Origin: Leptogorgia sarmentosa
Lineage: Eukaryota
Length of the DNA: 64,000 bases
Reading direction: 5' to 3'
Assembly (NCBI GenBank): GCA_964658305.1
Contig: OZ210884.1
Span: forward strand, 3,782,001-3,846,000
Below the pieces are notes generated by a model that worked only from the letters and a program-made list of their open reading frames with translations, was not told the origin of the DNA and searched no databases. The stretch's first letter is position 1. The number at the start of each line of letters is the position of its first letter. Positions 1-63,700 of the stretch are shown in pieces. A program made the position numbers and the translations under genes.

Positions 1-1147
1 AAATTTGGCTATAGAATTTTGTTTTCTATTCATAAACGTAATAAAGAGAAACGAATTCATCAAAATACCAGCAAATTTTGCCATAAAACCTTTTATAGGG
101 AAAATGTGGTACATTGAATAGTCTAATAATATACAAATACACATTAATTAAAATTTGGCAATTCTGGCTGATTTCGCTTTTGTTTACTGGGTTACTGTTC
201 ACAAATGTAAACAATGGCACAAGAATGTAGCAGAAAACCAATTAATTTTGTCACCATCAAAAGTTTAAAATTCTCCACCATGCAATTTTCACGCAACTTG
301 TAAGTGAAAATTATTTCATGATCATGCTTTGTTTTGGGAAGAAAAAAATTGATGTGTTTTAATCGGAATTCAGAATAATACGAATTTACTTTTTGGATTA
401 AAAAGTTGAGAAAAATTGTAATAGTTGAGGTGTTACAAAGCGACGAAATTTCAAGCATTGCGAAGTTAAATTGAAACAAAAATCGGCAGTAATGCAACAT
501 ATGGCGTAATTTGACAAAGAAAACAGTAGTCAGAAGCGACGCTGCGAGGCTGATTGCGAGAGAGTATAATTTTGCAACTACAATGGCAAACTTTCAATGT
601 TTAGGATAAAAAGCTTATCGCTGTAAACTATACGGGGGAGGGGAGTCATACCATTAATAAAATTCATACCACATGGGAAATTTTGATAAACACTGGTCCA
701 ATCGAATCTTTTTGACAATATGTTGGAAATTTATTCGTTATTTGTTGCCTGAAAAGTTTTGCGTGAGTATTGTGAATGCAATAATTTGTTAATTGACTTT
801 ATGCTACTTCATTATCCAAAGAGAGTGCAAGTAGGCAGAGTGTTAAGGTTGTTGAGAAAATAAAAATAAAAATGTTGGATGAAATGTTTAAAAATGTTCA
901 AAACCACGATACATGCAACCCAAAATAATATTCATGAAAAAATACATCTTACGAATGCTTCTTTTGAAAATTTGCGCAAAATATTCCTAAGCAATTAAAG
1001 GATGCGTTAAAACTTGCATATAAACTTATATAAACCTAACCTTTCTTTTTTCTTTCCTTTTTTTTCTTTTTTCTTTTATTTTTATCTTCACTTCAATGCA
1101 CGATATAGTTGTTGAGATTCCCACTAATAGCAAATCTATATTTTCAG

Positions 1148-1553
1148 CCATCGAATACTGTGGCACATGCAAGGGGCCTACCGTAAAGCCTGCATGTGGA
1201 CATCTGGTCCACTTGCAGGATGTGAGCGATCTTCCCTTCGGGGAAAGATTTCTATGTTCTGTGTGCAAGTATGTCTCAAATACATTCTTTGATATACAAT
1301 TAGAAAATACACTCTTGACAATTACTAACTTTTCATGTCTTCTTCTTGTTTTTTGTTGTAATAGAAAATTCGATCACAGAGTCTCGTCGTTATTATAAAC
1401 GACTTTAATTTTTGGATAGATTTACTCAAGTATGTATGAAGATTTACGCTATCTATGCATTAAATGACAACAGTATCACAAGATCTACAATTTTTATTTA
1501 TATATTTATTTGTTTTCTCTTACAGTGTTTTCATGGTTGCAATGAAAAAGTAA
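1148..1553 (+). pseudogene. Mini-RING gene, divergent variant; exon 1 missing and a 2-nt insertion giving TAA in exon 3
   Basis: Exon 2 reads CGTCKGPTVKPACGHLVHLQDV...CSVCK with the same splice signals as the other copies. TTA TTA TAA at ~1390-1398 breaks exon 3. Confidence 0.7.
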
Positions 1554-2766
1554 ATTGTCAGTAATAAATGTTCAAAACCAATACATTTGTGTGTGTGTTT
1601 TTATTTCACCGGCGCCATATGTGCGGGGTAATACTACAACCCATTCTACTACCCTATTATAGGTAATTTATTAACACCAATTTTGAAAAATTAAATTATT
1701 TAGATTAAATGACTCGTCAAATTTATGTCGCGTTAATTTAGTGCATCGTTAACTTCCTATAATGACGTGTGTATGATATAATTGTTATTCTTAATTATTA
1801 TTCGTTATACAAAAAAAAAAACAAAACAAAAAAACTTCAGCATACGTCACAAAACTTTAGCTATATATACGCGCATACATGTAAGGCTTCGCATTTCTCA
1901 ACACGTACTCAGTATGGATATCACTGAAGTTAGGAAGATGAATGCCAAGGAACAGAAGAACTTCAGAAGAAAGGAAAAAGAGAGAAAAGAACGAGCAAAG
2001 ATAACTGAGGCGTTCCTAATGAAGAAGTACGCCCCATCAGGCAGGAGCTTCAAGAACACATCCGAACAACCCTACTATCCCAAACCTCTTCACCAAAAAC
2101 CACCACACCAGCAACGCAAACCCGTGAAACCTCACCAAACCTTATTCCCTCCACAGATCCCTTTTTCATCCTCGATCCTTTTTTGGATGAATTTATGACA
2201 GATCCCTTTTTGATCCCCGATCCTTCTTTGGATGAATTGACAGTGGACCTGCCAGATCTGGGGGACATTTCCCATGATCTCCAGTTATTATAAATAAAAA
2301 ACAAAAAACTCCATTACAACATGGACAGCATAACAACCATCATCGATATGGACGGTTTTACCGTAAACAAGAAATTCTACTGCAAGGGGCTGGTTATGAT
2401 TAAAAAGAATCAAACCTATGCCACATCCATACTCTTCGAAATTCGACCTCGGGTTAAACTGGAAACACCTCACCGAAAAAGACAAAAAATCAGCGCGTTT
2501 CCTCGAGAAGCACATCCACAAGATCCGTTTCAACTCCCCCTCAACCGTCCCAGTATCCAACCTACCTCAAATCGTAAGAACATATTTCAGCGAACCAGAA
2601 ACTTTGGTGGCTTATAAGGGAGGACATTTTGAAAAAAGATCTACTGGACCAACTAGGAATTCCATCCGTCAAACGGGAAAACTTTAGATGCCCCAAAGCC
2701 GAACAGCTGTTTCAGAAACTTGGATGGTTGGAGACCTGTGGACACCAGATCACCCCCGACGCATAC

Positions 2767-2927
2767 CAGGGGTGGGGCATAACAGGCATGGGGTTTTAAG
2801 ATTACCAAAAATAATTTTTTTTTAAACATGATGAAAAGTGGGGGGGATAATTAGATATTCGTCCCCCCCACTTCAAAAAGTGGGGGGGACGCGTCCCCCC
2901 ATCCCCCCCCCAGGATTGACGCCCTTG
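2767..2927 (-). mobile_element. G/C-run hairpin MITE fragment truncating ORF-C (also ~4977-5135, ~7089-7246, ~9195-9353)
   Basis: The minus strand starts CAAGGGCGTCAATCCTGGGGGGG, a typical MITE end with internal GGGGGGG/CCCCCCC stems. It replaces the ORF-C C-terminus present at 12399-12444. Confidence 0.65.
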
Positions 2928-3114
2928 ATAGAATGTGATCTGGCACCGATCCATATGAGATTGGTCGAAGAGGTTTCATTTATAGTTGTATAGGTTTTTG
3001 TCATTTATATGCAATAAAAGTCACTTCATATAGATCATTAGACCTAAATTAATGCAAAACATATCGTATATATATAGCCGTCATACATGTATAGACTCAT
3101 AGCCGGCACCTGAA

Positions 3115-3762
3115 ATGGCATCAACTCAAGGAGGTATATATCTATAAACCTAACCTTTCTTTTTTTCTTTCCTTTTTTTTTTCTATTTTCTTTTATTTTT
3201 ATCTTCACTTCAATGTACGATATAGTTGTTGAGATTCCCACTAATAGCAAATCTATGTTTTCAGCCATCGAATACTGTGGCACATGCAAGGGGCCAACCA
3301 TTATGCCGTTATGTGGACATCGAGTCCACATAATTGAAATATCCGATCTTCCCTTCGGGGAAAGATTCATCTGCAATATTTGCAAGTATGTCTCAAATAC
3401 ATTCTTCGATATACATTTAGAAAATATACTCTTGACAATTACTAACTTTTCATGTCTTCTTCTTGTTTTTTTTTTGTATTAGAGTGTCAGATGAGAGAGT
3501 TACGTCGTTGATGAACGACGTTGACTTCTGGCTTGACCTTTTTAAGTATGTATGAAGATTTACGCTATCTATGCCTTCAATGACAACAGTATCACAAGAT
3601 CTAGAATTTTTATTTATGTATTTATTTGTTTTCTCTTACCCGTGTTTTCATGGTTGCAATGAAAAAGTGATTGTAATAAATGTTCAGAACCAATACATTT
3701 GTGTGTGTGTGAAAACACTCTCTTACAGTGTTTTCATGGTTGCAATCGGAAAAAAAAAGTAG
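3115..3762 (+). CDS. Spliced mini-RING (RING-H2 variant) protein, copy with duplicated last exon (ends NVFMVAIGKKK)
   Basis: Exons 3115-3133, 3265-3385, 3483-3545 and 3729-3762 join in frame with GT-AG introns. The first copy of exon 4 has its acceptor mutated to CCG; the duplicate has CAG. Confidence 0.7.
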
Positions 3763-5322
3763 CGTGATTCTAATAAATGTTCAAAACCGATACATTTGTG
3801 TGTGTGTTTTTATTTGACCGGCGCCATATGTTCGGGGTAATACTACAACCCATTCTACTACCCTATTATAGGTAATTTATTAACACCAATTTTGAAAAAT
3901 TAAATTATTTAGATTAAATGACTCGTCAAATTTATGTCGCGTTAATTTAGTGCATCGTTAACTTCCTATAATGACGTGTGTATGATATAATTGTTATTCT
4001 TAATTATTATTCGTTATACAAAAAAAAAACAAAACAAAAAAACTTCAGCATACGTTACAAAACGTTTAGCTATATATACGCGCATACATGTAAGGCTTCG
4101 CATTTCTCAACACGTACTCAGTATGGATATCACTGAAGTTAGGAACATGAATGCCAAGAAACAGAAGAACTTCAGAAGAAAGGAAAAAGAGAGAAAAGAA
4201 CGAGCAAAGATAACTGAGGCGTTCCTAATGAAGAAGTACGCCCCATCAGGCAGGAGCTTCAAGAACACAACCGAACAACCCTACCATCCCAAACCTCTTC
4301 ACCAAAAACAACCACAACAGCAACGCAAACCCCTGAAACCTCACCAAACCTTATTCCCTCTACAGATCCCTTTTTCATCCTCGATCCTTTTTTGGATGAA
4401 TTTATGAAAGATCCCTTTTTGATCCCCGATCCTTCTTTGGATGAATTTACAGTGGACCTGCCAGATCTGGGGGACATTTCCCTTGATCTCCAGTTATTAT
4501 AAATAAAAAAACAAAAAACTCCATTACAACATGGACAGCATAACAACCATCATCGATATGGACGGTTTTACCGTAAACAAGAAATTCTACTGCAAGGAGC
4601 TGGTTATGATTAAAAAGAATCAAACCTATGCCACATCCATACTCTTCGAAATTCGACCTTGGGTTAAACTGGAACCACCTCAGCGAAAAAGACAAAAAAT
4701 CAGCGCGTTTCCTCGAGAAGCACATCCACAAGATCCGTTTCAACTCCCCCTCAACCGTCCCAGTATCCAACCTACCTCAAATCGTAAGAACATATTTCAG
4801 CGAACCAGAAACTTTGGTGGCTTATAAGGGAGGACATTTTGAAAAAAGATCTACTGGATCAACTGGGAATTCCATCCGTCAATCTGGAAAACTTTGGATG
4901 CCCCAAAGCTGAACAGCTCTTCCAAAAACTTTGATGGTTGGAGACCTATGGACACCACATCACCCCCGACGCATACCAGGGGTGGGGCATAACAGGCATG
5001 GGGTTTTAAGATTACCAAAAATATTTTTTTTTTAAACATGATGAAAAGTGGGGGGGATAATTAGATATTCGTCCCCCCCACTTCAAAAAGTGGGGGGGAC
5101 GCGTCCCCCCATCCCCCCCAGGATTGACGCCCTTGATAGAATGTGATCTGGCACCGATCCATATGAGATTGGTCGAAGAGGTTTCATTTATAGTTGTATA
5201 GGTTTTTGTCATTTATATGCAATAAAAGTCACTTCATATAGATCATTAGACCTAAATTAATGCAAAACATATCGTATATATATAGCCGTCATACATGTAT
5301 AGACTCACAGCTGGCACCTGAA

Positions 5323-5877
5323 ATGGCATCAACTCAAGGAGGTATATATCTATAAACCTAACCTTTCTTTTTTTCTTTCCTTTTTTTTTTCTTTTTTCTT
5401 TTATTTTTATCTTCACTTCAATGTACGATATAGTTGTTGAGATTCCCACTAATAGCAAATCTATGTTTTCAGCCATCGAATACTGTGGCACATGCAAGGG
5501 GCCAACCATTATGCCGTTATGTGGACATCGAGTCCACATAATTGAAATATCCGATCTTCCCTTCGGGGAAAGATTCATCTGCAATATTTGCAAGTATGTC
5601 TCAAATACATTCTTCGATATACATTTAGAAAATACACTCTTGACAATTACTAACTTTTCATGTCTTCTTCTTGTTTTTTTTTTGTATTAGAGTGTCAGAT
5701 GAGAGAGTTACGTCGTTGATGAACGACGTTGACTTCTGGCTTGACCTTTTTAAGTATGTATGAAGATTTACGCTATCTATGCATTCAATGACAACAGTAT
5801 CACAAGATCTAGAATTTTTATTTATATATTTATTTGTTTTCTCTTACAGTGTTTTCATGGTTGCAATGAAAAAGTAA
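5323..5877 (+). CDS. Spliced 76-aa mini-RING (RING-H2 variant) protein MASTQGAIEYCGTCKGPTIMPLCGHRVHIIEISDLPFGERFICNICKVSDERVTSLMNDVDFWLDLFNVFMVAMKK
   Basis: Exons 5323-5341, 5473-5593, 5691-5753 and 5850-5877 total 231 nt in frame. Donors are GTATAT/GTATGT/GTATGT; intron 2 has a TACTAAC branch point and a pyrimidine tract. There is a TATA run upstream and AATAAA at 5887. Confidence 0.78.
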
Positions 5878-7433
5878 ATTGTCAGTAATAAATGTTCAAA
5901 ACCAATACATTTGTGTGTGTGTTTTTATTTTACCGGCGCCATATGTGCGGGGTAATACTACAACCCATTCTACTACCCTATTATAGGTAATTTATTAACA
6001 CCAATTTTGAAAAATTAAATTATTTAGATTAAATTATTCGTCAAATTTATGTCGCGTTAATTTAGTGCATCGTTAACTTCCTATAATGACGTGTGTATGA
6101 TATAATTGTTATTCTTAATTATTATTCGTTATACAAAAAAAACAAAACAAAAAAACTTCAGCATACGTTACAAAACGTTTAGCTATATATACGCGCATAC
6201 ATATAAGGCTTCGCATTTCTCAACACGTACTCAGTATGGATATCACTGAAGTTAGGAACATGAATGCCAAGAAACAGAAGAACTTCAGAAGAAAGGAAAA
6301 AGAGAGAAAAGAACGAGCAAAGATAACTGAGGCGTTCCTAATGAAGAAGTACGCCCCATCAGGCAGGAGCTTCAAGAACACATCCGAACAACCCTACTAT
6401 CCCAAACCTCTTCACCAAAAACCACCACACCAGCAACGCAAACCCGTGAAACCTCACCAAACCTTATTCCCTCCACAGATCCCTTTTTCATCCTCGATCC
6501 TTTTTTGGATGAATTTATGACAGATCCCTTTTTGATCCCCGATCCTTCTTTGGATGAATTTACAGTGGACCTGCCAGATCTGGGGGACATTTCCCTTGAT
6601 CTCCAGTTATTATAAATAAAAAACAAAAAACTCCATTACAACATGGACAGCATAACAACCATCATCGATATGGACGGTTTTACCGTAAACAAGAAATTCT
6701 ACTGCAAGGAGCTGGTTATGATTAAAAAGAATCAAACCTATGCCACATCCATACTCTTCGAAATTCGACCTCGCGTTACACTGGAACCACCTCACCGAAA
6801 AAGACAAAAAATCAGCGCGTTTCCTCGAGAAACACATCCACAAGATCCGTTTCAACTGCCCCTCAACCGTCCCAGTATCCAACCTACCTCAAATCGTAAG
6901 AACATATTTCAGCGAACCAGAAACTTTGGTGGCTTATAAGGGAGGACATTTTGAAAAAAGATCTACTGGACCAACTAGTAATTCCATCCGTCAAACTGGA
7001 AAACTTTAGATGCCCCAAAGCCGAACAGCTGTTTCAGAAACTTGGATGGTTGGAGACCTGTGGACACCATATCACCCCCGACGCATACCAGGGGTGGGGC
7101 ATAACAGGCATGGGGTTTTAAGGTTACCAAAAATAATTTTTTTTTAAACATGATGAAAAGTGGGGGGGATAATTAGGTATTCGTCCCCCCACTTCAAAAA
7201 GTGGGGGGGACGCGTCCCCCCATCCCCCCCAGGATTGACGCCCTTGATAGAATGTGATCTGGCACCGATCCATGTGAAATTGGTCGAAGAGGTTTCATTT
7301 ATAGTTGTATAGATTTTTGTCATTTATATGCAATAAAAGTCACTTTATATAGATCATTAGACCTAAATTAATGCAAAACATATCGTATATATATAGCCGT
7401 CATACATGTATAGACTCACAGCTGGCACCTGAA

Positions 7434-7986
7434 ATGGCATCAACTCAAGGAGGTATATATCTATAAACCTAACCTTTCTTTTTTTCTTTCCTTTTTTTTT
7501 CTTTTTTCTTTTATTTTTATCTTCACTTCAATGTACGATATAGTTGTTGAGATTCCCACTAATAGAAAATCTATATTTTCAGCCATCGAATACTGTGGCA
7601 CATGCAAGGGGCCAACTATTATGCCGTTATGTGGACATCGAGTCCATATAATTGAAATATCTGATCTTCCCTTCGGGGAAAGATTCATCTGCGATATTTG
7701 CAAGTATGTCTCAAATACATTCTTCGATATACATTTAGAAAATACACTCTTGACAATTACTAACTTTTCATGTCTTCTTCTTGTTTTTTTTTGTATTAGA
7801 GTGTCAGATGAGAGAGTTACGTCGTTGATGAACGACGTTGACTTCTGGCTTGACCTTTTTAAGTATGTATGAAGATTTACGCTATCTATGCATTCAATGA
7901 CAACAGTATCACAAGATCTAGAATTTTTATTTATATATTTATTTCTTTTCTCTTACAGTGTTTTCATGGTTGCAATGAAAAAGTAA
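7434..7986 (+). CDS. Spliced 76-aa mini-RING protein (array copy)
   Basis: Exons 7434-7452, 7583-7703, 7800-7862 and 7959-7986; all splice sites intact. Confidence 0.78.
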
Positions 7987-9540
7987 ATTGTCAGTAATAA
8001 ATGTTCAAAACCAATACATTTGTGTGTGTGTTTTTATTTTACCGGCGCCATATGTGCGGGGTAATACTACAACCCATTCTACTACCCTATTATAGGTAAT
8101 TTATTAACACCAATTTTGAAAAATTAAATTATTTAGATTAAATGACTCGTCAAATTTATGTCGCGTTAATTTAGTGCATCGTTAACTTCCTATAATGACG
8201 TGTCTATGATATAATTGTTATTCTTAATTATTATTCGTTATACAAAAAAAAACATAACAAAAAAACTTCAGTATACGTTACAAAACGTTTAGCTATATAT
8301 ACGCGCATACATATAAGGCTTCGCATTTCTCAACACGTACTCAGTATGGATATCACTGAAGTTAGGAACATGAATGCCAAGAAACAGAAGAACTTCAGAA
8401 GAAAGGAAAAAGAGAGAAAAGAACGAGCAAAGATAACTGAGGCGTTCCTAATGAAGAAGTACGCCCCATCAGGCAGGAGCTTCAAGAACACATCCGAACA
8501 ACCCTACCATCCCAAACCTCTTCACCAAAAACCACCACACCAGCAACGCAAACCCGTGAAACCTCACCAAACCTTATTCCCTCCACAGATCCCTTTTTCA
8601 TCCTCGATCCTTTTTTGGATGAATTTATGACAGATCCCTTTTTGATCCCCGATCCTTCTTTGGATGAATTTACAGTGGACCTGCCAGATCTGGGGGACAT
8701 TTCCCTTGATCTCCAGTTATTATAAAAAACAAAAAACTCCATTACAACATGGACAGCATAACAACCATCATCGATATGGACGGTTTTACCGTAAACAAGA
8801 AATTCTACTGCAAGGAGCTGGTTATGATTAAAAAGAATCAAACCTATGCCACATCCATACTCTTCGAAATTCGACCTCGGGTTAAACTGGAAACACCTCA
8901 CCGAAAAAGACAAAAAATCAGCGCGTTTCCTCGAGAAGCACATCCACAAGATCCGTTTCAACTCCCCCTCAACCGTCCCAGTATCCAACCTACCTCAAAT
9001 CGTAAGAACATATTTCAGCGAACCAGAAACTTTGGTGGCTTATAAGGGAGGACATTTTGAAAAAAGATCTACTGGACCAACTAGGAATTCCATCCGTCAA
9101 ACTGGAAAACTTTAGATGCCCCAAAGCCGAACAGCTGTTTCAGAAACTTGGATGGTTGGAGACCTGTGGACACCACATCACCCCCGACGCATACCAGGGG
9201 TGGGGCATAACAGGCATGGGGTTTTAAGATTACCAAAAATATTTTTTTTTAAACATGATGAAAAGTGGGGGGGATAATTAGATATTCGTCCCCCCCCACT
9301 TCAAAAAGTGGGGGGGACGCGTCCCCCCATCCCCCCCAGGATTGACGCCCTTGATAGAATGTGATCTGGCACCGATCCATATGAGATTGGTCGAAGAGGT
9401 TTTATTTATAGTTGTATAGGTTTTTGTCATTTATATGCATTAAAAGTCACTTCATATAGATCATTAGACCTAACTTAATGCAAAACATATCGTATATATA
9501 TAGCCGTCATACATGTATAGACTCACAGCTGGCACCTGAA

Positions 9541-10095
9541 ATGGCATCAACTCAAGGAGGTATATATCTATAAACCTAACCTTTCTTTTTTTCTTTCCTT
9601 TTCTTTTTCTTTTTTCTTTTATTTTTATCTTCACTTCAATGTACGATATAGTTGTTGAGATTCCCACTAATAGCAAATCTATGTTTTCAGCCATCGAATA
9701 CTGTGGCACATGCAAGGGGCCAACAATTATGCCGTTATGTGGACATCGAGTCCATATAATTGAAATATCTGATCTTCCCTTCGGGGAAAGATTCATCTGT
9801 AATATTTGCAAGTATGTCTCAAATACATTCTTCGATATACATTTAGAAAATACACTCTTGACAATTACTAACTTTTCATGTCTTCTTCTTGTTTTTTTTT
9901 TGTATTAGAGTGTCAGATGAGAGAGTTACGTCGTTGATGAACGACGTTGACTTCTGGCTTGACCTTTTTAAGTATGTATGAAGATTTACGCTATCTATGC
10001 ATTCAATGACAACAGTATCACAAGATCTAGAATTTTTATTTATATATTTATTTGTTTTCTCTTACAGTGTTTTCATGGTTGCAATGAAAAAGTAA
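9541..10095 (+). CDS. Spliced 76-aa mini-RING protein (copy in the half unit)
   Basis: Exons 9541-9559, 9691-9811, 9909-9971 and 10068-10095; all splice sites intact. Confidence 0.78.
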
Positions 10096-10544
10096 ATTGT
10101 CAGTAATAAATGTTCAAAACCAATACATTTGTGTGTGTGTTTTTATTTTACCGGCGCCATATGTGCGGGGTAATACTACAACCCATTCTACTACCCTATT
10201 ATAGGTAATTTATTAACACCAATTTTGAAAAATTAAATTATTTAGATTAAATGACTCGTCAAATTTATGTCGCGTTAATTTAGTGCATCGTTAACTTCCT
10301 ATAATGACGTGTGTATGATATAATTGTTATTCTTAATTATTATTCGTTATAATAAGAATAGAATGTGATCTGGCACCGATCCATATGAGATTGGTCGAAG
10401 AGGTTTTATTTATAGTTGTATAGGTTTTTGTCATTTATATGCAATAAAAGTCACTTCATATAGATCATTAGACCTAAATTAATGCAAAACATATCGTATA
10501 TATTTAGCCGTCATACATGTATAGACTCACAGCTGGCACCTGAA

Positions 10545-11186
10545 ATGGCAACAAGTCAAGGAGGTATATATCTATAAACCTAACCTTTCTTTTTTTCTTT
10601 CCTTTTTTCTCTCTTTTTTTTATTTTTATCTTCACTTCAATGTACGATATAGTTGTTGAGATTCCCACTAATAGCAAATCTATGTTTTCAGCCATCGAAT
10701 ACTGCGGCACGTGTAAGGGGCCCACGGTAATGCCGTCATGTGGACATCGGGTCCACATAAATGATGTAGCTGATCTTCCCTTCGGGGAAAGATTCATTTG
10801 TAATATTTGCAAGTATGTCTCAAATACATTCTTTGATATACATTTAGAAAATACACTCTTTACAATTACTAACTTTTCATGTCTTCTCCTTGTTTTTTTT
10901 TGTATTAAAGAATCAGATGAAAGAGTCACGTCGCTGCTGAACGACGTTGACTTCTGGTTAGACTTATTCAAGTATGTATGAAGATTTACGCTATCTATGC
11001 ATTCACAGACAACAGTATCACAAGATCTAGAATTTTTATTTATGTATTTATTTGTTTTCTCTTACCCGTGTTTTCATGGTTGCAATGAAAAGTGATTGTA
11101 ATAAATGTTCAGAACCAATACATTTGTGTGTGTGTGAAAACACTCTCTTACAGTGTTTTCATGGTTGCAATCGGAAAAAAAAGTAG
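10545..11186 (+). pseudogene. Mini-RING gene, third sequence variant (MATSQG...CKGPTVMPSCGHRVHINDVA); intron-2 acceptor mutated
   Basis: TATTAG has become TATTAA at the intron-2 acceptor, although the retained intron is in frame and stop-free. The duplicated last exon is one A short. Confidence 0.6.
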
Positions 11187-11543
11187 CGTGATTCTAATAA
11201 ATGTTCAAAACCAATACATTTGTGTGTGTTTTTATTTTACCGGCGCCATATGTGCGGGGTAATACTACAACCCATTCTACTACCCTATTATAGGTAATTT
11301 ATTAACACCAATTTTGAAAAATTAAATTATTTAGATTAAATGACTCGTCAAATTTATGTCGCGTTAATTTAGTGCATCGTTAACTTCCTATAATGACGTG
11401 TGTATGATATAATTGTTATTCTTAATTATTATTCGTTATACAAAAAAAAACAAAACAAAAAAACTTCAGCATACGTTACAAAACGTTTAGCTATATATAC
11501 GCGCATACATATAAGGCTTCGCATTTCTCAACACGTACTCAGT

Positions 11544-11923
11544 ATGGATATCACTGAAGCTAGGAAGATGAATGCCAAGAAACAGAAGAACTTCAGAAGA
11601 AAGGAAAAAGAGAGAAAAGAACGAGCAAAGATAACTGAGGCGTTCCTAATGAAGAAGTACGCCCCATCAGGCAGGAGCTTCAAGAACACATCCGAACAAT
11701 CCTACCATCCCAAACCTCTTCACCAAAAACCACCACACCAGCAACGCAAACCCGTGAAACCTCACCAAACCTTATTCCCTCTACAGATCCCTTTTTCATC
11801 CTCGATCCTTTTTTGGATGAATTTATGACAGATCCCTTTTTGATCCCCGATCCTTCTTTGGATGAATTTACAGTGGACCTGCCAGATCTGGGGGACATTT
11901 CCCTTGATCTCCAGTTATTATAA
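11544..11923 (+). pseudogene. Cassette ORF-B: bZIP-like basic N-terminus plus acidic/hydrophobic C-terminal tail in a second frame (one frameshift). Other copies at 1914-2293, 4123-4502, 6236-6615, 8346-8725 and partial 12562-12765
   Basis: Frame 1 gives MDITEARKMNAKKQKNFRRKEKERKERAKITEAFLMKKYAP. The shifted frame continues IRQELQEHIRT...DPFFILDPFLDEFMTDPFLIPDPSLDEFTVDLPDLGDISLDLQLL* with no stop. TATATATA lies upstream. Confidence 0.55.
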
Positions 11924-11950
11924 ATAAAAAACAAAAAACTCCATTACAAC

Positions 11951-12444
11951 ATGGACAGCATAACAACCATCATCGATATGGACGGTTTTACCGTAAACAA
12001 GAAATTGTACTGCAAGGAGCTGGTTATGATTAAAAAGAATCAAACCTATGCCACATCCATACTCTTCGAAATTCGACCTCGGGTTAAACTGGAACCACCT
12101 CACCGAAAAAGACAAGAAATCAGCGCGTTTCCTCGAGAAGCACATCCACAAGATCCGTTTCAACTCCCCCTCAACCGTCCCAGTATCCAACCTACCTCAA
12201 ATCGTAAGAACATATTTCAGCGAACCAGAAACTTTGGTGGCTTATAAGGGAGGACATTTTGAAAAAAGATCTACTGGACCAACTAGGAATTCCATCCGTC
12301 AAACTGGAAAACTTTAGATGCCCCAAAGCCGAACAGCTGTTTCAGAAACTTGGATGGTTGGAGACCTGTGGACACCACATCACCCCCGACGCATACCATC
12401 ATTGCGGTAAAGTCGAGGTCGAAGCGTTTGCGATGTGGTTATGA
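11951..12444 (+). pseudogene. Cassette ORF-C: ~163-aa DEDD/DnaQ-like exonuclease, Polinton/adintovirus-type, with two +1 frameshifts. 3'-truncated copies at 2321-2768, 4531-4978, 6643-7090 and 8749-9196
   Basis: Joining the three overlapping ORFs (11951, 12048, 12259) gives IIDMDGF..CKEL..VAYKGGHFEKDLL..LENFRCPK..TCGHH..HHCGKVEVEAFAMWL. The paralog at 14.2-14.4 kb reads GAA AAG GAT TTG in frame across the second shift. Confidence 0.65.
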
Positions 12445-13569
12445 TAGAAAAAAAAAACAAAAAAACAAAAAAAACAAAAAACTTCAGCATACGTCACAAA
12501 ACGTTTAGCTATATATACGCGCATACATGTAAGGCTTCGCATTTCTCAACACGTACTCAGTATGGATATCACTGAAGTTAGGAAGATGAATGCCAAGAAA
12601 CAGAAGAACTTCAGAAGAAAGGAAAAAGAGAGAAAAGAACGAGCAAAGATAACTGAGGCGTTCCTAATGAAGAAGTACGCCCCATCAGGCAGGAGCTTCA
12701 AGAACACATCCGAACAACCCTACCATCCCAAACCTCTTCACCAAAAACCACCACACCAGCAACGATTTTTCCCCTGAAGACTTTTTAAATCAAAACAAAA
12801 CAAAAGAAATGAAGACTATTTAAATGAAGACTTTTTAAATCTTTATAACTATGAAGACTTTTTTAATGATTTAAAAGATTTTAGAAGATTTAAAAATGAA
12901 GACTTTTTAAATCTTTATAACTGACAGTTTTCTTTTCTAAAATACACGTAAAATGAGTTTCCCACTATACGTTCGTGCCTTTTATTTTAATTGAACGTTA
13001 ATTTACGTTGCTACTAAGCGAATAGCCTTCATGAAAATTCGCGTTAATTTTATCGATGTTAATTTTTCCCGAGTGTTTTTGCTATATTAATTTATAATAT
13101 TAAATTATTTAAATTAAATCGTCAATTATTTATGTCGCGTTCATATAGTGCATGGTTAATTTCCTATAATGAGGTGTGTAAGATATAATTGTTATTCTTA
13201 ATGATGGTGTTATGATCGGAAAGCGGAACTACCAACGACGACAACAACGACAAGATATGGGAAAAGACAAGAAAAAAGAGGCTAAAGGCAGACAAAAAAA
13301 AGGGTTTGAAAACTAAAGGCGTTGGAGTGTGCAAGATATTGAAGTATCCTGAGCCATCAGCTTCGCACAGAGAGTACTTTGAATCACTTTTTGATATGTC
13401 ATGTTTTGTGTGGTTTCAGAATTATTCTGAATCTGAAAGAACAATCCATAATCTTTTGGACTATGTTGTGTGTGTACAAATTAAATCTAATATGACTGTA
13501 TGTAATAAACTAAATAATACTTTATTTTTAAAACATGTTGTTTTGTTGTTCTTTTTCATTTTAATAATT

Positions 13570-14085
13570 GTATAGGTTTATCATGTATAGGCAATAAAAG
13601 TCGCTTCATATAGATCATTAGACCTAAATTAACGCAAAACAAAACGTATATATTTAGGCGTCATACATGTAGACTCTCAGTTGGCACCTTACACCTGAAA
13701 ATGGCTGCGAGTCAAGGAGGTATATCTATAAACTTAACCTTACTTTTTTTATCTTCACTTATATGCATGATAGTTGTTGAGATTCCCACTAATATCAAAT
13801 CTGCCCAAACTGTAAGGGACCAACCATGATGCCCTCGTGGGGCAGAAAATTAGATGAAAGAATCACGTCGTTAAGATTTTTATTGCAGTAAATGCAAGTA
13901 TGTCTCAAATACATTCTTTGATATACAAATAGAAAATACACTCTTGACAATAAACTTGTATAGGTTTATCATTTATAGGGAATAAAAGTGGCTTCATATA
14001 GATCAGAGACCTATATTAACGCGAAACAAAACGTATATAATTTATATATTTAGCCGTCATACGTGTAGACTCACAGTGGGCACCA
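13570..14085 (+). pseudogene. Degraded, rearranged older copy of the mini-RING gene and its promoter (promoter present twice)
   Basis: ATG GCT GCG AGT CAA GGA G|GTATATC at 13701; CPNCKGPTMMPS; the intron-2 start GTATGTCTCAAATACATTC is conserved. The promoter-like block recurs at ~13958-14085. Confidence 0.7.
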
Positions 14086-14185
14086 AGTAGGAGTCAAGTC
14101 CTAATTGATTGTAGTTTCATGATTAAATTAATTGTTGTAAGCTTATCTTTTATTCCCACCCTTCTTAAAATAATTTTCAAACTAG

Positions 14186-14423
14186 ACTAAAGTATACGTC
14201 AAAACTCCAAGTCTGCTATTGCATATAAAGGAGGAGATATTGAAAAGGATTTGCTTGCTGTGTTAACATCCCCGCGATCAACTTGGAAGATTTTGGTTGT
14301 CCAAAGGCCGAAAAGCTAATGGATGAATTGATATGGTTGGAAACGTGCGGGAAGAATTTGACAGCCAACGCATATCAACATTGTCCCAAAATGGAAGTGG
14401 AGGCACTTGGATTATGGCTGTAA
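14186..14423 (+). pseudogene. Diverged paralog of the ORF-C exonuclease C-terminal half
   Basis: IAYKGGDIEKDLLAVL/IPAINLEDFGCPKAEKLMDELIWLETCGKNLTANAYQHCPKMEVEALGLWL*, with one frameshift. Confidence 0.8.
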
Positions 14424-23263: not shown

Positions 23264-23581
23264 GTGTGACATAGCTGTCCCCTATTTTTCCTACTTGGCA
23301 TCCCCTGCAGTCCCTTCGAACTTGACCTTCGATATTCGCGATCAAAAGTGTTCGAAGCTGTCGTTGGGCCACGTTTTGTAAAGGAAGTAAACGCACGATT
23401 TCGGCGGAAACCAGCTGAAAATTGCCTGTTTATATTCAAATTTTCTCTAAGTCTCTCCAGCTTTGCGCGTTTTGCTTTGTTTGATGTGAAATTTGGTGTT
23501 TCTAACCGCCTTAAATATACCTTGATTGTTCAGAGCGCGGTTTATTTTGTGTTTTGTGTCTACCTGTCAGATTTCGAAAGA

Positions 23582-26500
23582 ATGACGCATATTTCAAGAC
23601 AATTTGCGTTCTATGTCGTGCTTTTTACCGTAATATTTGTTGTCCACTGTAAACCTGTACAAAAACCGAAGGACGCGGAGGAGAAGAAGGACGACTGGAG
23701 GAAAGAAGAGGATCCTGCTTATGTGAAATACTTAAAACAAGTGATCGAAATTCTAGAAGAAGATGAAAATTTCTCAAAGCGCCTCGAGAATGTGACAGAG
23801 GAGGATATACGGAGCGGTAAGATCGCCGAAGAGATCGATTTTGCAAGCCATCACATTCGTACTAGACTCGACGAACTTAAACGCAAGGAGATCGAGTCAC
23901 AAAGACAATTACTGAGAAAGGAACAGGATTTACGTCGGGGCATACATAGGGAATACTGGAATCCTTTGAACGACAGAGAGAATCCGAATACATTTGAGGT
24001 TGAGGATTTGAAGAAACTACTTTCAAAGGTAATTATAAGGCGTTACACTTGATAATAGAGTAGGTAGCAAGTTTACACACAACTGAAAGTACGTATCAAG
24101 TTCGAACTTGCAAATTAACTTTAGAATTATGTGATATAAATCTTTATAGGAGGGGTAACTGCCACAAATGCCCCCACAGTTGGCGCCAAGCATAAAAGTA
24201 TTGAAAGCTTGAAGTACCCATATAGATCATTGACAATGGCATTTTGAGGGCTTTCTAGTGAAATATTTCATCATACTTCTTTTAAAATGGAATTGTTTGT
24301 GGGGATGATCAATAGCTATTTGCCTTGCATAAATTATATGTATTCCTTGCTAATTGCTTGCTGTTTCTTGTGTGTGTACCATATTTTGATTGTACAACAG
24401 TGTATGCAATACTGGTGACAAAGAAATGCTGATGTGAAAGGGCTCATGTGTTGCTGAAATGGTTTAAATCTTTGCTCTTGTGATCCAGCAACAAGCAGTA
24501 GAAGTTCTAAGTACTCACTACCTAAACAATGTAAACAGATTCAACGTTTCGAGCAAAGGCCCTTTGTCAGGCACCAACTGATTCCCGAAGAAGGGCGTTG
24601 AATATAACCTTGGTTGCTTGTTCATTACCCTCTACCCACACTGGTCACGTATTGAAGTTTGTTATTTATAATCCAACTGGCAATTGATGCAGGTTACTTT
24701 CAACAGTTCTACTCACTATTGTACCAATGATACCTAAACAATACAATTAGATCTTATTGTATTGCTTAACGAGTGAGTTGATCTCTTACTGCACATTGTT
24801 ACGGTATGTTGTTATTCGTTACCTAGACCGGCCAATTGAAAAATTGTTGCAACTTATAGTGCCCAATTCTTCCTGGATGCCTGAATAATAATATTCACAT
24901 TTATGATTGCCTTAATTTCAACTATTCAAGTTTACACAGCATGACTAAGCTGCCCTGAATGCTGGCTTTGCCACCAGGCAAGTTGCACCTGAATCAATGC
25001 TTACACATCTGTCATGGTGAACAAATACAAACTGTTTACCAACTTTTTCTAAAATAGAATGCCTATAAATTTGTCCTCTACAACTGTGATAAGCTACAGT
25101 GCACTAGCCACAGCTTGATTCCTTCTGTAATTTTTTCACAGAAATTAAAAACACACCTTTCTAAGCTCACTTCCTCTATAAGAAAAAAACAGACTTTTGA
25201 AAGTCCACAATGCACTCTTAAGTTTTATCTATCTATTATGGGCCTCTACAATACTTGGAGTAGGCATCTTTCACCTTTGAAATGGATTCAAATCTCACTG
25301 TTTATACATGATAAGAACAAATTCTTCTAAGCAGTCACTCTCCTAACAAAAACTCCAGACTTCATGAAATAATTTACAATGCTTCCTTAGTCCCTATTTT
25401 TCTGTGTCTGTGGGCGTCAGTATCACAATGATTGCACTAAGCATCATTTACCTCCGAAATGGATTCAAGATTCATGTTGGCACATGATACCATGGAGACA
25501 GGTGCTACCCCCTCCCTACTACCCTACTACCCCACCCTCTACTACCCCTCGCCCTTACTACCCCCCCCCCCCCCTCCCTTTTTTGTGAAGTAAAGTGAAA
25601 TGAATTTACAAAAGGCTAAAAATAATGTTGTCTATATGTAGACCTATGGACCTAGATATTATGTTCAGGTTCTCTTAAAATGCAGGAAATAACGTAAACA
25701 GGACAGAGAGAATTAAAAATTATACAGGGGCGTAGGAAGCGTGTCGGCTGTGGTCGCCATTTAAACCATTTAGTGCTGGGATCAAACCCACCTGAATGAG
25801 TGTCGAGTCCCTCTTAGGAATCCCTACGATTATACTCTGTATTACGTCCTTAATTTCTTTACACAAATGGAAGATTTATACATCCGTCTAATATCAATAA
25901 GTGCGCATTATATCACATAGACAAAGTTTGCTAAAATCAAGTGCAAATGGCGTAGCTCAAACTGAGTCTAGGCGAAGTAAATGATGTAAATAAAGAAACA
26001 CTCACTTCTTATGGCCATCTCAAGAACAATATCCCAATGTCAAACGATTTACTGTACAATCAAATCACTTACATGTCAACACGCACGCTTTTAGATCTCA
26101 TAGTTCGATCGAAGCTCTCTCCTCACGCCCTCATAAATTATGTTATTATGCGAAAATGGTGCGAAATATTTAAAATAATTTGCGCAATTAGCACGACGTT
26201 CGTAACACGCATTTCAGATGGCATATGTATCAATCAACTTTAGGTGCTCCAAATTCCAAAAATTTTGGTGGCGCTTGGTGGGCTTACACACCTCCAATCT
26301 ACTATCGTTTTCCTCAGCCCCAACCCCACTGTTAAACACGCTCAGTGGGCCCTTTGCAATTGCTCTGCTGAATCATATCGTAATTGTTTCATAAAATAAC
26401 TGCAGTGAAACAACGGAAAACATTAATTTCTCTTCCATAAATAGGAGAAACCCTTGTTTGTTGTTTTCGATAGAAAATTGATGGGCTATCCTGTCAAATT

Positions 26501-36030: not shown

Positions 36031-43500
<7,470 letters not shown>

Positions 43501-50606: not shown

Positions 50607-52188
50607 AAACTCTACATTTTTAATGAACATATATGATATTATATAGAGCTGATTCAATTTGAAAATCGGGTTGATTTTGTAATGAGTAATAAGTACAGTC
50701 AGTGCAATTATACTTGCTGGATAACTTTTCATAATTATTGAGTTTGTATACCGAGAAAATAATCACTATATATAAGTCATAGTATCTCTATATATGGTTA
50801 GGGGTAGAATGGGTTGGGGTTGGGGCTAGGGCTATAGAGATTATATAAGTTTCAGGATTGTTAGTACGGAGCTTAAACGACTGCTTTCCCGTTTCGCATT
50901 TGTTTTTCACCATTAAAATCTATCTAAATTTTATTCAATTACTATAATTACGTTATTTAACAATTAGATTACGAGCTCGAGATTTCTATGAGGTGATAGT
51001 TGATGAGGGCGAAGAATCAGAGATCAAACATGAAAATATTGCAAAAAATAATTTAAAAACGCGTCTCAGAAGACATTTTCTTGAACGAAAATTCACATAT
51101 TTTGCTACTCGCTATATCTATCGAGGAATAGATATCGAGTAGAGTAGCCAATCAAAATGCAGCATTTGCAATAGTATACGAGTATGATTCTACTAATAAC
51201 GAATAGACATCAAATCGTACATCAAGTTGTATTCTGTCTTTTTAATGCAACTAGTCATTACAGGGCGAAAAAACAGATTTGCAATATATTTGCACGCTTG
51301 CAAATTATTTGTTAATTCGATAACTAAGGGCCTGTTAACGTTTATATAATCCCACTTACCAGAGTTAAATAACGCGTAAAATGATTTTGAGTTATTGAAA
51401 CGAGTCATATAGTTTATGATTTGAATATGTTAAACTGGCAGGTTGCTCAACATTTTGTGCCGCTAAAATATCAAACAGTCATCAAAACAATCATCCTATA
51501 ATATAACCTAGCTCTGTTCACTGAATCCCTAGTACAGTCCCGCACAATATTCTCTGGTTGTCTCATAAAATTATTTCAAAAAGTGAAGGCACGCCATTGT
51601 ACTGAATATATAATGATTGAATTACTCAGTTTAGCCGACAAAAAACGTTTATTTGGATTTTGGATTGTACAATTGTAATCCCAAGCGGTCATTCCAACCT
51701 GTCATTCATTTGAACTTTGGCTGGAGTGGGTAACGAGTAACGACCTTCTAGATCTTGCAAATCTCGAATCTTCTAGATCTTGCATCGTTTCCGGTGGTTT
51801 TTCTTGGTAATGCGTCTTCCAGGAAAAAGGTAATATAATATTATACACCCTTCCTGAATGTAATAAGTCAGACAAATCGAAAGCGAAAATGAACGCTATT
51901 AATTTTGATATAGGCTTATTTATCTTTATTTTTGTAAAAATCTGAGCAAAGATGGAGGCCAGAAAAAGTCAAATTTTGTCAGGTATTGTGTCATTGTTGA
52001 CTGCAGCAATAGTGCAGTTCTTCCTGTAGCTACTAACAAGGCTTAGCCATTCAGCCTCGATTTCGAGTTCGGCCTTAACGCATGCTTGCGGAAGTCTGTA
52101 TTTATTTTACTATACCAGCCTCTCATTCGGCCATCATTTGCCAGTACCTTGATTATTTGCACCGTGTTGCCCGAATCATGAAGTAAAA

Positions 52189-60740: not shown

Positions 60741-63700
60741 CACTGCAAAAAATCCATTTCTGGATATGAGTAAAATGACTCAAAAATTGAGTCAGGATGC
60801 TCACGTTTTGAGTGAATTGAAATTGTTACTCAGATAGCTGAGTAAAAATACTCGCATCTGAGAGTAAGCACTATTTGCGAGTAATTTTACTCAATCATGC
60901 GAGTAATACAATACTCACTATATTGAGTAAAAATTCATCTTGAGTCATTTTAACCAACAACATGAGTAAATTGACTCAAAAGGATGAATATTTACTCAAC
61001 CGCAAAAACAATACTCAAAAATTTGAGTAATTTGAACTATATTACTCAAAAGTTGAGTAAAGTCAACAAAATGTCAAAACAAGTTACTCACAGATATCCA
61101 CGATATGAGTAACTTTACTCACAGCTACGCATGACATGAGTAACTTTACTCACAGCTACTCATGACATGAGTAAGTTCACTCACAGCTACCATGACATGA
61201 GTAACTTTACTCACAGCTACCACGACATGAGTAACTTTACTCACAACTACCATGACATGAGTAACTTTACTCACAGCTACGCATGACATGAGTAACTTTA
61301 CTCACAGCTACGCATGACATGAGTAACTTTACTCACAGCTACGCATGACATGAGTAACTTTACTCACAGCTACTCATGACATGAGTAACTTTACTCACAG
61401 CTACTCATGACATGAGTAACTTTACTCACAGCTACGCATGACATGAGTAACTTTACTCACAGCTACTCATGACATGAGTAAGTTCACTCACAGCTACCAT
61501 GACATGAGTAACTTTACTCACAGCTACCACGACATGAGTAACTTTACTCACAACTACCATGACATGAGTAACTTTACTCACAGCTACGCATGACATGAGT
61601 AACTTTACTCACAGCTACGCATGACATGAGTAACTTTACTCACAGCTACGCATGACATGAGTAACTTTACTCACAGCTACTCATGACATGAGTAACTTTA
61701 CTCACAGCTACTCATGACATGAGTAACTTTACTCACAGCTACTCATGACATGAGTAACTTTACTCACAACTACCATGACATGAGTAACTTTACTCACAGC
61801 TACGCATGACATGAGTAACTTTACTCACAACTACCATGACATGAGTAACTTTACTCACAGCTACTCATGACATGAGTAACTTTACTCACAGCTACGCATG
61901 ACATGAGTAACTTTACTCACAACTACCATGACATGAGTAACTTTACTCACAACTACCATGACATGAGTAACTTTACTCACAACTACCATGACATGAGTAA
62001 CTTTACTCAGAGCTACGCATGACATGAGTAACTTTACTCACAGCTACGCATGACATGAGTAACTTTACTCACAACTACCATGACATGAGTAACTTTACTC
62101 ACAGCTACTCATGACATGAGTAACTTTACTCACAGCTACGCATGACATGAGTAACTTTACTCACAGCTACTCATGACATGAGTAACTTTACTCACAGCTA
62201 CGCATGACATGAGTAACTTTACTCACAACTACCATGACATGAGTAACTTTACTCACAGCTACGCATGACATGAGTAACTTTACTCACAGCTACTCATGAC
62301 ATGAGTAACTTTACTCAGAGCTACGCATGACATGAGTAACTTTACTCACAGCTACGCATGATATGAAGATTGCCATCGTTGCATATACGTAAAAATTTGC
62401 ATAACTGCCAACATGAACCAATCAGTGAGTCCCAAAGGGATACCGTTGAGTCACATAATTGTCTATTCGGCACCTGGAATCCTACACGTGTATCCTGCTT
62501 CGTGTTCAGAGCAAAGTTTCTTGTGGTCGAAGACCCGCTTATACTACCAAAAGTTAAGCTTTTTTAAATCTCGCTATTATGGAGCAAGTCCAGGAATGTT
62601 TGAAAAAAAATGGTTTTGAAGAATATCGTGACAGATTCCTTGGTAAGTTGTTGTGGAATAATGTATTAATGCGCTACTTAAGGCGAAGCACGTTTGTCTA
62701 TATATCTGCCGATTAACGGTGCCGAGTATTGATGTTTTAAGCCTAGTTATAGGTTTGTGTTTTTGAAATACGTTCTGCTTTGTTTATTTGTGAAAACGGA
62801 ATTTGCAATTGTGACTGTGTGCCAGCCGAAATACCGTATAAGCGGTATAATCAAAGGAGTTTGATGTCACTAAACACCATGAGCAGTGGTTGCTAGTAAT
62901 CTATGGTAATCACTCAACTAGCTGCATGATGCTATAAATTACCTGCATAACAAAGAAATTCTTCATAATGACATAAAGTATAGACATATTACTTGTAATC
63001 TGCTCGCGTTTGTGTTGCCCAATACTTATTGACTTTGGTAAGGCATGTCTTATCAATAAAGCAAAAAAGAAAGCTCAGACTCTTGAGGAACAACAATCAC
63101 AAATATCACAGTCATATTGCTCCGGAAGCAGTCGATGGTACACACACACCCTGAGTTAAAAATGATATTTACTCTGTTTATATTGTCGTTTCAAAGATTT
63201 ATAGCCGTTGCAAGTGCCGACCTTTTGCGAGGAGATGTTTAGAAAAATTCCCTTCCAAGTGTGATACAGAGCAGTTAATGGCGCTTGTGAACAGTTCAAA
63301 GAGTTAAACTGATATACATGCACTGCATGTAACAGTATAATATGCATGTGCTTGATAGTGTACTTCACCATGCAATTCAGTTATTAAATTAACATTCTGT
63401 AATAACAGTATACATGCAAAGTAAACAGACAGTCCTGAAATAAATATCTTAGTATAGGACATTTTACTATATGTTGTCATATCACATATGCATGTGATTT
63501 GTTGCAAACAACTCCGCATTCGTGATAAATCTACACATAACTCAATCTCGGCACCTATATTTTGCGTTTTAGGAGGAATCCACGGTTGAGGAAATCGTCG
63601 AAGGTGATCGGAAAGATTACCCAAAAATTTTTATCAAAGGTGACTGCCGAACACCCGAACGAGTTGTCATTGTGGCAGAACGCACAGTGTTGTTCTCGGT

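What the first reader, a model, noticed from the sequence alone, without database searches (positions are those of the whole stretch)
1148..11000. Hidden 4-exon mini-RING gene whose exons are hypervariable while its introns are conserved
Seen: the '89-113 aa ORFs' of the track are better read as one 76-aa spliced gene. It has a TATA run, GT-AG introns, a perfect TACTAAC branch point and AATAAA, and the T-run length changes that frameshift the unspliced ORF fall inside intron 2. Hand counts: exon 2 differs at about 27/121 nt between the 1148 and 5473 variants and about 16/121 between the 3265 and ~10692 variants. Exon 3 differs at about 11/63, but the intervening intron 2 at only about 4/96. 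Many changes are synonymous and all Cys/His ligands are kept. Exon 1 also varies (MASTQG/MATSQG/MAASQG), while the neighbouring ORF-B and ORF-C are nearly invariant. Established: exons diverging faster than introns is known from toxin gene families such as conotoxins and snake PLA2. Inference: either an arms-race effector under diversifying selection, exon-restricted replacement (e.g. cDNA- or conversion-mediated from divergent paralogs), or strongly constrained introns.
Basis: partly seen in the sequence, partly recalled or inferred. Interest (0 to 1): 0.88.

Follow-up and report, generated by a model that had tools for sequence, protein, structure and literature searches.

The report
Coral gene: silent-hypervariable exons, frozen introns
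In a likely soft-coral repeat array, copies of a tiny spliced gene differ at about 45% of the silent positions of their exons but only 3-5% of their intron positions while the protein stays conserved, most likely because copying between old gene variants keeps the introns alike, though escape from small-RNA silencing is not excluded.

Summary
Observation confirmed. A 2.1-kb tandem unit holds six copies of a four-exon Cys/His gene in three variant classes (A, B, C). Exons 2+3 differ at 49/184 (A-B) and 27/184 (B-C) sites, introns at 8/309 and 10/320. Contigs of one of four public runs skip introns 1 and 2 exactly; intron 3 is unverified and the run type is unknown. The arms-race-protein reading fails: dN/dS is 0.12-0.36 and silent sites differ at 43-47%. 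The host is likely an octocoral. RING identity is only a lead. Best explanation (0.40): old paralog lineages whose introns are homogenised by gene conversion while selection rejects foreign amino acids. Mosaic copies are present, and simulation reproduces the bulk numbers. It fails one post-hoc test: ten silent B-C differences at exon edges, reached in 1 of 2,962 matched runs. Rivals: selection on mature-mRNA sequence to escape piRNAs (0.22), cDNA-templated exon replacement (0.15), intron constraint (0.13). Four scan look-ups found no earlier report of this locus type; one returned a loose octopus analogue.

The parts
5323..5341 (+). exon 1 coding part of reference copy c3 (class B)
   Evidence: a contig of run X2 ends exactly at 5341 and two contigs join it to 5473
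5342..5472 (+). intron 1 (131 nt, GT-AG, pyrimidine microsatellite)
   Evidence: skipped exactly in 2 contigs of X2
5473..5593 (+). exon 2, 121 nt; C-x2-C-x8-C-x-H-x2-H-x2-[E/D]-x11-C-x2-C motif; silent-site hypervariable
5520..5538 (+). predicted hairpin 1 in exon 2; silent sites in the stem nearly invariant
5553..5575 (+). predicted hairpin 2 with a UUCG loop; identical in all six copies
5594..5690 (+). intron 2 (96-97 nt, TACTAAC at 5648, T-run length varies)
   Evidence: skipped in 1 contig of X2
5691..5753 (+). exon 3, 63 nt; silent-site hypervariable
5754..5849 (+). predicted intron 3 (96 nt, GT-AG); splicing not seen
   Evidence: no joint in 4 of 4 runs
5850..5892 (+). predicted exon 4 coding part (to 5877) and AATAAA (5887); not hypervariable
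1029..1553 (+). copy c1, class A: 5'-truncated inside intron 1, broken in exon 3; likely a B/A' recombinant
3115..3670 (+). copy c2, class B: intron-3 acceptor lost, exon 4 duplicated at 3729; intron 3 shares alleles with both B and C
7434..7986 (+). copy c4, class B, intact
9541..10095 (+). copy c5, class B, intact
10545..11096 (+). copy c6, class C: acceptors of introns 2 and 3 lost, exon 4 duplicated at 11154
13554..13951 (+). degenerate, rearranged copy c7 (a further lineage): non-coding parts differ 26/286 from c3, exon pieces 7/32 and 8/28
6236..6520 (+). ORF-B of the repeat unit, Lys/Glu-rich, no family found
   Evidence: Pfam scan run on the copy at 11544-11825
6643..7088 (+). ORF-C of the repeat unit, frameshifted and truncated; member of a multi-copy ~162-aa family, likely nuclease-like
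4977..5135 (.). ~160-bp G/C-run element with imperfect inverted ends (MITE-like) at the unit junction
14262..14423 (+). second, deeply diverged ORF-C 3' end beside c7 (30/53 aa; 20 of 30 same-residue codons differ)

Best explanation
This is a small spliced Cys/His-motif gene in a tandem repeat, and its exon variants are likely old paralog lineages whose introns and promoter are likely kept alike by gene conversion. Shown: exons 2 and 3 differ at 43-47% of silent sites under purifying selection, introns differ at 3-5%, the rate changes near the splice sites, and copies are mosaics. Inferred steps: (1) The gene rides in a multi-copy mobile-element-like cassette beside ORF-B and ORF-C, and its lineages (A', B, C, plus P0002 and c7) split long ago. 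(2) Ectopic conversion tracts of about 100 nt keep overwriting introns, which is neutral. (3) Tracts that would import another lineage's amino acids are removed by selection, so linked silent differences persist as islands that coincide with the exons. (4) Longer exchanges anchored in the near-identical introns swap exon blocks between lineages, as in c1. The protein is predicted to be a RING-H2-like zinc finger with an acidic sixth ligand, possibly a ubiquitin-ligase-type accessory factor; this is untested.
For: Exchange is visible. c1 equals class B over exon-2 bases 1-31. Beyond that it matches the X3 contigs: the 8 differences in the exon-2 contig are 7 within bases 1-23 plus 1 in intron 1, and the 133-nt exon-3 contig has 0. 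c1 lacks the X3 intron-3 variants; linking those X3 contigs rests on equal depth (27.6, 29.8, 30.1), not phasing. c2 intron 3 carries B alleles at positions 35-36 and C alleles from position 73 on. dN/dS of 0.12-0.36 fits old lineages under constraint. A two-copy simulation reaches intron divergence <=0.05 with silent divergence >=0.35 in up to 13 of 14 A-B-like runs and 7 of 18 B-C-like runs; its near-exon intron divergence (0.04-0.07 in the best settings) matches the observed 1/24 and 3/66. The islands-of-divergence model is established (Teshima and Innan, as described in PMC3728101, Discussion part 1 read).
Against: B and C differ at 10 silent codons lying between an exon border and the nearest amino-acid difference. 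Matched simulations give a mean of 2.0-2.6 and reach 10 in 1 of 2,962 runs (the statistic was chosen post hoc and the model has two copies only). Only 3 of 72 settings of the first grid matched, all without a homology requirement or mismatch stop. Intron characters seem to follow the exon grouping B+C versus P0002+c7: the microsatellite, the intron-1 start and intron-2 position 31 (P0002 read from its translation; few sites). The model does not explain why introns lack in-register stop codons (2 of 31; 13 of 20,000 controls).
Confidence: 0.4

Rival explanations
1. Small-RNA escape. The lineages are young (3-9% non-coding divergence). The element's mature mRNA is sliced by host piRNAs, so variants that recode their exons while keeping the protein escape and spread; introns are never in the target and stay at the neutral level. 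The array of broken A, B, C and c7 variants would be the host's archive of captured variants.
For: Predicts high dS, low dN/dS and sharp, uneroded borders. ML changepoints fall 13, 5, 10 and 2 nt from the four splice borders, and the X3 variant differs from the first base of exon 2 with 1 difference in about 60 flanking intron bases. All four bases occur at one fourfold site (exon-2 position 35) among six copies; serine and leucine codon switches occur. The ORF-C copy beside c7 is saturated at silent sites (20 of 30 codons) while nearby non-coding DNA differs 13/127 and 26/286. CpG decay is not the cause (4/27 and 1/27). piRNA slicing of transposon and gene transcripts is shown in a cnidarian (PMC5731801, passages).
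Against: No small-RNA data were examined. No precedent appeared in searches (listings only). The first 23 bases of exon 4 show no difference in the pairs compared and a 23-nt hairpin in exon 2 is invariant. Within class B the silent excess is weak (4/39 vs introns 9/324, P 0.04; vs upstream 9/200, P 0.24). Strong selection on single silent changes is hard to obtain (own knowledge).
Confidence: 0.22
2. Exon-restricted replacement. Spliced cDNA or intronless DNA from diverged family members converts the exons of an intron-bearing copy, leaving introns in place and sometimes removing one.
For: Borders are sharp. Contigs of runs X1-X4 bridge introns and run past the poly(A) signal, as DNA would; if they are DNA, the exact intron-1 and intron-2 skips in X2 are intron-less genomic copies.
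Against: The run type is not on record, and splicing in one sample explains both X2 joints at once. No contig with a similar exon and unlike intron flanks is among the loose ends shown (20 of 29; 14 of 14). The c1 tract carries the donor's intron 2, so it was DNA-templated. Intron characters track the exon grouping.
Confidence: 0.15
3. Old lineages with all three introns and the promoter held by purifying selection (splicing signals, a retained-intron isoform or an overlapping frame).
For: Introns are depleted of in-register stops (2 of 31; 13 of 20,000 controls), and an antisense frame stays open for 185 codons in c6. Intron length changes of 3 and 6 nt occur. Exon-2 hairpins show that silent sites here can be frozen (1/11 vs 8/16, P 0.04, post hoc).
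Against: Intron differences are not enriched for synonymous changes in either frame (antisense 5 of 15, P 0.19; sense 2 of 15). Introns show no folding signal (z -1.5 to +1.0). A roughly 10- to 15-fold lower rate than silent sites along whole AT-rich introns would be exceptional (own knowledge).
Confidence: 0.13
4. Diversifying selection on the protein, as in venom toxins.
For: 11 of 39 exon-2 residues differ between A and B; selection at a few sites cannot be tested with three lineages.
Against: dN/dS is 0.12-0.36, changes are conservative, and silent divergence exceeds replacement divergence two- to sixfold. Protein selection alone cannot raise dS far above intron divergence. The N-terminus has no obvious signal peptide (by eye).
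Confidence: 0.05

Closest known systems
Islands of divergence under interlocus gene conversion (Teshima-Innan model; Tigriopus GOT1p1/p2, with RH and opsins cited there; PMC3728101, abstract, section 6 and Discussion part 1 read)
   Same: Paralogs with patches of high divergence, low Ka/Ks and chimeric haplotypes made by conversion.
   Different: Here the islands coincide with two whole exons and end near splice sites. GOT1p1/p2 has no introns in the region, and in GOT1Sd/Sr the pattern is reversed (exons converted, intron unalignable).
Snake venom PLA2 genes (PMC7285919, passages read); conotoxins (search listing only, otherwise recalled)
   Same: Introns and UTRs far more conserved than coding exons in a multigene family.
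   Different: PLA2 has KA close to or above KS and equal rates at the three codon positions; here dN/dS is 0.12-0.36 with a third-position excess, and the protein does not look secreted.
MHC class I intron homogenisation (recalled; the MHC paper opened, PMC12674619, did not analyse introns)
   Same: Old exon lineages with silent divergence above intron divergence.
   Different: No sign of positive selection on the protein; the introns are only about 100 nt and lie between two diverged exons.
RING-H2 (C3H2C3) zinc fingers
   Same: C-x2-C...C-x-H-x2-H...C-x2-C order; Atlas neighbours are RING clusters, many viral (0.85-0.89); the top two Foldseek rows are RNF168 RING entries.
   Different: The sixth ligand is Glu/Asp and the first loop is 8 residues; no Pfam hit; structural matches are not significant (E >= 3).
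Accessory-gene cassettes of large mobile elements (Polinton/Maverick recalled; Terminons with DEDDy nucleases, PMC6431247, passages read)
   Same: Small RING-like gene beside a ~162-aa multi-copy ORF with an N-terminal DxD motif; Atlas leads to Maelstrom (0.86) and a 3'-5' exoribonuclease (0.82).
   Different: No polymerase, capsid, integrase or RT gene was seen in the unit or beside it; no relatives in IMG/VR.

Membership tests
Spliceosomal four-exon gene | GT-AG borders and an open spliced frame | tested here: met
   c3, c4 and c5
Spliceosomal four-exon gene | Exact removal of introns 1 and 2 | tested here: met
   joints in X2 contigs, 1 of 4 runs; mRNA or intron-less DNA cannot be told apart
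Spliceosomal four-exon gene | Exact removal of intron 3 | tested here: inconclusive
   no joint listed in 4 runs; contigs show presence, not absence
RING-H2 / C3HC4 RING finger | Eight Cys/His ligands at canonical spacing (consensus recalled) | tested here: not met
   seven Cys/His, Glu/Asp at the sixth place, 8-residue first loop
RING-H2 / C3HC4 RING finger | Profile or fold match | tested here: inconclusive
   no Pfam family; Atlas 0.85-0.89; model pLDDT 74 from 5 sequences; Foldseek best E 3.2 in PDB and 0.95 in BFVD; VIA best Z 2.2
RING-H2 / C3HC4 RING finger | Zinc binding and E2-dependent ligase activity | not testable with these tools
   needs biochemistry
Toxin-type accelerated exon evolution | Introns more conserved than coding exons | tested here: met
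Toxin-type accelerated exon evolution | KA close to or above KS | tested here: not met
   dN/dS 0.12-0.36
Conversion with islands of divergence | Recombinant or converted copies | tested here: met
   c1 and c2 mosaics
Conversion with islands of divergence | Silent divergence confined near protected amino-acid differences | tested here: inconclusive
   fits A-B (0/6 silent sites >15 nt away differ) but not B-C (7/19); edge test 1 of 2,962 in a two-copy model, post hoc
Polinton/Maverick or other large mobile element | pPolB, ATPase, capsid, integrase and long inverted repeats | tested here: inconclusive
   none recognised by eye among the ORFs listed for the window; only 11 ORF pieces were scanned against Pfam; the array begins near the window's left edge
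piRNA-escape recoding / piRNA cluster | Small RNAs with ping-pong signature on the exons | not testable with these tools
   no run on record as RNA

The most novel reading that the evidence does not exclude
A mobile-element gene in a soft coral recodes its exons at silent sites roughly 10-15 times faster than its introns drift, to escape piRNA slicing of its mature mRNA while keeping the protein; the host array archives successive escaped variants. Its own introns would be a built-in neutral clock for a nucleotide-level arms race.
Probability: 0.22. Interest if true: 0.9.

Novelty: new variant of a known kind. Interest (0 to 1): 0.62.

Why it matters
Exons outrunning introns is known, but the PLA2 case comes with positive selection on the protein. 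Here the excess is silent, the protein is conserved, and the switch lies near the splice sites of 100-nt introns. If conversion explains it, this is an unusually sharp island-of-divergence case and a warning that introns cannot date paralogs in arrays. If small-RNA escape or cDNA templating explains it, the locus makes an open question testable: whether selfish genes evolve silent mRNA changes to evade piRNAs. One small-RNA library and one long-read genome would decide.

Tried and rejected
No own genome is held, so copies outside the window could not be collected. No RNA holder was listed. Family searches for the gene found one homolog only: P0002 among 4 HMMER hits (the other three are two WD40-type proteins and one repeat protein) and 1 of 64 candidates. 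DNA patterns from introns found nothing in metagenome contigs or viral contigs; protein-pattern scans of viral contigs confirmed 0 of 86 and 0 of 108 stretches. The one metagenome locus for ORF-C (L001, 52% over 66 aa; 1 of 157 stretches) showed nothing useful on reading. Rfam gave 3 weak hits below gathering score. The ORF-C model had pLDDT 53.5 and no meaningful fold match; a PDB sequence search gave one hit at E 1.2, so the DEDD label rests on a recalled motif and Atlas leads. CpG hypermutation rejected. A real antisense protein is not supported. An A-specific, DGR-like spectrum is not seen. The prokaryotic promoter scan was irrelevant. I first took the low divergence of intron sites near amino-acid differences as evidence against conversion; simulation showed conversion gives the same, so I dropped it. 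Assembly artefact is unlikely: A- and B-type exons recur in X3 contigs and a C-like one in X2; these runs are one study and may include the window's source. Paper searches returned nothing; 43, 44, 55, 70, 74, 82 and 94 were seen as listings. No supplements were read, and subscription papers are not searched, so absence from print is not shown.


Full report
Setting. Window 1029-12780 is a tandem array with a unit of about 2.1 kb. A nucleobindin exon at 23660-24037 is 92% identical to Dendronephthya gigantea nucleobindin-2-like; the next named hit is 58%. The host is therefore likely an octocoral. No whole genome is held. Each unit carries the small gene, an AT-rich spacer, ORF-B, a broken ORF-C and, in four units, a ~160-bp G/C-run element at the junction. 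ORF-C belongs to a multi-copy ~162-aa family (6 clusters, 66-85% identical to the 62-aa query). Its nearest Atlas clusters are unnamed and mostly eukaryotic (0.96), with weaker leads to Maelstrom and a 3'-5' exoribonuclease. That suggests mobile-element cargo, but no element class was shown.

Gene model. The four-exon model is in the sequence as stated. Four public runs of one study hold the stretch; their type is not on record. In run X2, two contigs skip 5342-5472 at GT..AG, and one contig joins exon 2 to a C-type exon-3 start, removing intron 2 exactly. No joint is listed for X1, X3 or X4, and none for intron 3 in any run. Other contigs bridge the introns and run on past the poly(A) signal, so the runs may be DNA or unspliced read-through RNA. 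Either way, exact GT-AG removal supports introns 1 and 2 as real. Only c3-c5 are intact. c1 and c6, the two divergent copies, are broken, and the X3 contig matching c1 exon 3 carries the same break.

The contrast. The six copies form three classes. Exons 2+3 versus introns: A-B 49/184 vs 8/309 (P 1e-15); B-C 27/184 vs 10/320 (P 3.7e-6). For A pairs the gapped aligner undercounts exon 2 in three of five pairs, so the ungapped c1-c2 and c1-c3 values are used. X3 adds an exon-2 variant with 35 differences in 182 nt, beginning at the first exon base; by comparison with c1, 34 lie in the exon. P0002 is a further lineage whose read-through intron translation is largely conserved while exon 2 is 59% identical. 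Degenerate copy c7 differs at 26/286 non-coding sites but 7/32 and 8/28 in exon pieces. Maximum-likelihood changepoints (A and C pooled against B) fall at 83, 186, 278 and 349 against splice borders at 70, 191, 288 and 351; log-likelihood is -170.6 at the splice borders against -195.7 for one rate.

What kind of change. Silent sites differ at 43-47% (dS 0.64-0.73) and dN/dS is 0.12, 0.30 and 0.36. The protein is under purifying selection, which rules against the venom-toxin reading, where KA is close to or above KS (PMC7285919, passages). CpG transitions account for 4 of 27 and 1 of 27 differences, and the spectrum is not A-specific. What needs explaining is why silent exon sites differ roughly 10-15 times more than intron sites a few bases away.

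Leading mechanism. Copies exchange sequence. c1 is B-type for exon-2 bases 1-31, matches the X3 variant from there through exon 3 including intron 2, and lacks the X3 intron-3 alleles; c2 intron 3 switches from B to C alleles. Linking the X3 contigs rests on equal depth. A two-copy simulation with conversion and selection against importing amino-acid differences matched the bulk numbers in 3 of 72 settings of a first grid, all mismatch-tolerant. In a finer mismatch-tolerant grid it matched up to 13 of 14 A-B-like and 7 of 18 B-C-like runs. This is the islands-of-divergence model (PMC3728101). I give it 0.40.

Where it fails. B and C differ at ten silent codons that lie between an exon border and the nearest amino-acid difference, for example five bases in the last 14 of exon 3 beside an intron start whose first 34 bases are identical in c3 and c6. 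Conversion should erode these: matched simulations average 2.0-2.6 and reach ten in 1 of 2,962 runs. The statistic was chosen after seeing the data, and exchange through third lineages with edge amino-acid differences could soften it. The few informative intron characters also seem to follow the exon grouping. Beside c7, a second ORF-C copy is saturated at silent sites while a neighbouring non-coding motif differs at 13/127; that these belong to one lineage is inference from adjacency.

Rivals. Selection on mature-mRNA sequence to escape piRNAs fits the sharp borders and the coding-versus-non-coding contrast, and piRNA slicing exists in cnidarians (PMC5731801, passages). It has no direct evidence here, and I found no precedent in searches (0.22). 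cDNA-templated exon replacement would gain strongly if X2 is DNA, but no donor was seen and the c1 tract carried an intron (0.15). Intron constraint has one odd support, the lack of in-register stops (2 of 31; 13 of 20,000 controls), but intron changes show no synonymous bias (0.13). Protein-level diversifying selection gets 0.05; the remainder is unassigned.

The protein. Exon 2 carries C-x2-C-x8-C-x-H-x2-H-x2-[E/D]-x11-C-x2-C, RING-H2-like in order but with an acidic sixth ligand. Pfam is blank, Atlas RING neighbours score 0.85-0.89, and fold searches of a pLDDT-74 exon-2 model are not significant. I do not file it as a RING family member; it likely works as a small zinc finger.

Verdict. 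A real, statistically strong pattern, misread as protein diversification. It is a new variant of a known kind, with a residual that the known mechanism does not cover. Interest 0.62. Four look-ups of earlier scan notes returned one loosely similar octopus case attributed to copying between repeats; I did not test it.

Noticed in passing
window 5406-5472, 5594-5672, 5754-5849; antisense 10504-11061: Introns are depleted of stop codons in register with the exons (2 of 31 on both strands; 13 of 20,000 controls), and an antisense frame is open for 185 codons in c6. Intron changes show no synonymous bias, so this is unexplained; it may be a relic of former coding sequence.
   Followed up: partly
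window 5520-5538 and 5553-5575: Two predicted RNA hairpins in exon 2, one with a UUCG loop. Silent sites in them vary at 1 of 11 against 8 of 16 outside (P 0.04, post hoc); the one change keeps a G-U pair.
   Followed up: partly
window 13554-14423: Degenerate copy c7 has exon pieces in scrambled order (exon-2 start, exon-3 start, exon-2 end, intron 2), followed by a second promoter copy and a diverged ORF-C end. Similar pieces appear in contigs of X2, X3 and X4.
   Followed up: partly
run X2 on window 5323-5593: A B-like exon-2 haplotype seems to occur both with and without intron 1 at similar depth, while the other haplotype appears only with it; read from contig break points, not phased.
   Followed up: partly
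window 2767-2926, 4977-5135, 7089-7246, 9195-9353: A ~160-bp MITE-like element with G/C runs and imperfect inverted ends cuts ORF-C and marks the unit junction.
   Followed up: partly
window 6045-6117 and 13085-13213: An AT-rich motif upstream of ORF-B recurs with several different flanks in all four runs; it is likely a dispersed repeat or shared promoter element.
   Followed up: no
window 40238-41126 (-): Reverse-transcriptase-like ORF fragments, Penelope-like by recalled motifs; not scanned.
   Followed up: no
window 23270-24052 and 52153-52875: Host genes: a nucleobindin exon (NUCB1_N) and a zf-MYND/DUF4470 gene.
   Followed up: partly
window 61084-62366 and 38183-38825: A 31-bp minisatellite of about 42 copies and a 15-17-bp purine-rich repeat array.
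   Followed up: no
P0010: An ORF-C family fragment fused behind a Cys/His-rich region resembling zf-GRF (recalled motif; no such Pfam hit).
   Followed up: no
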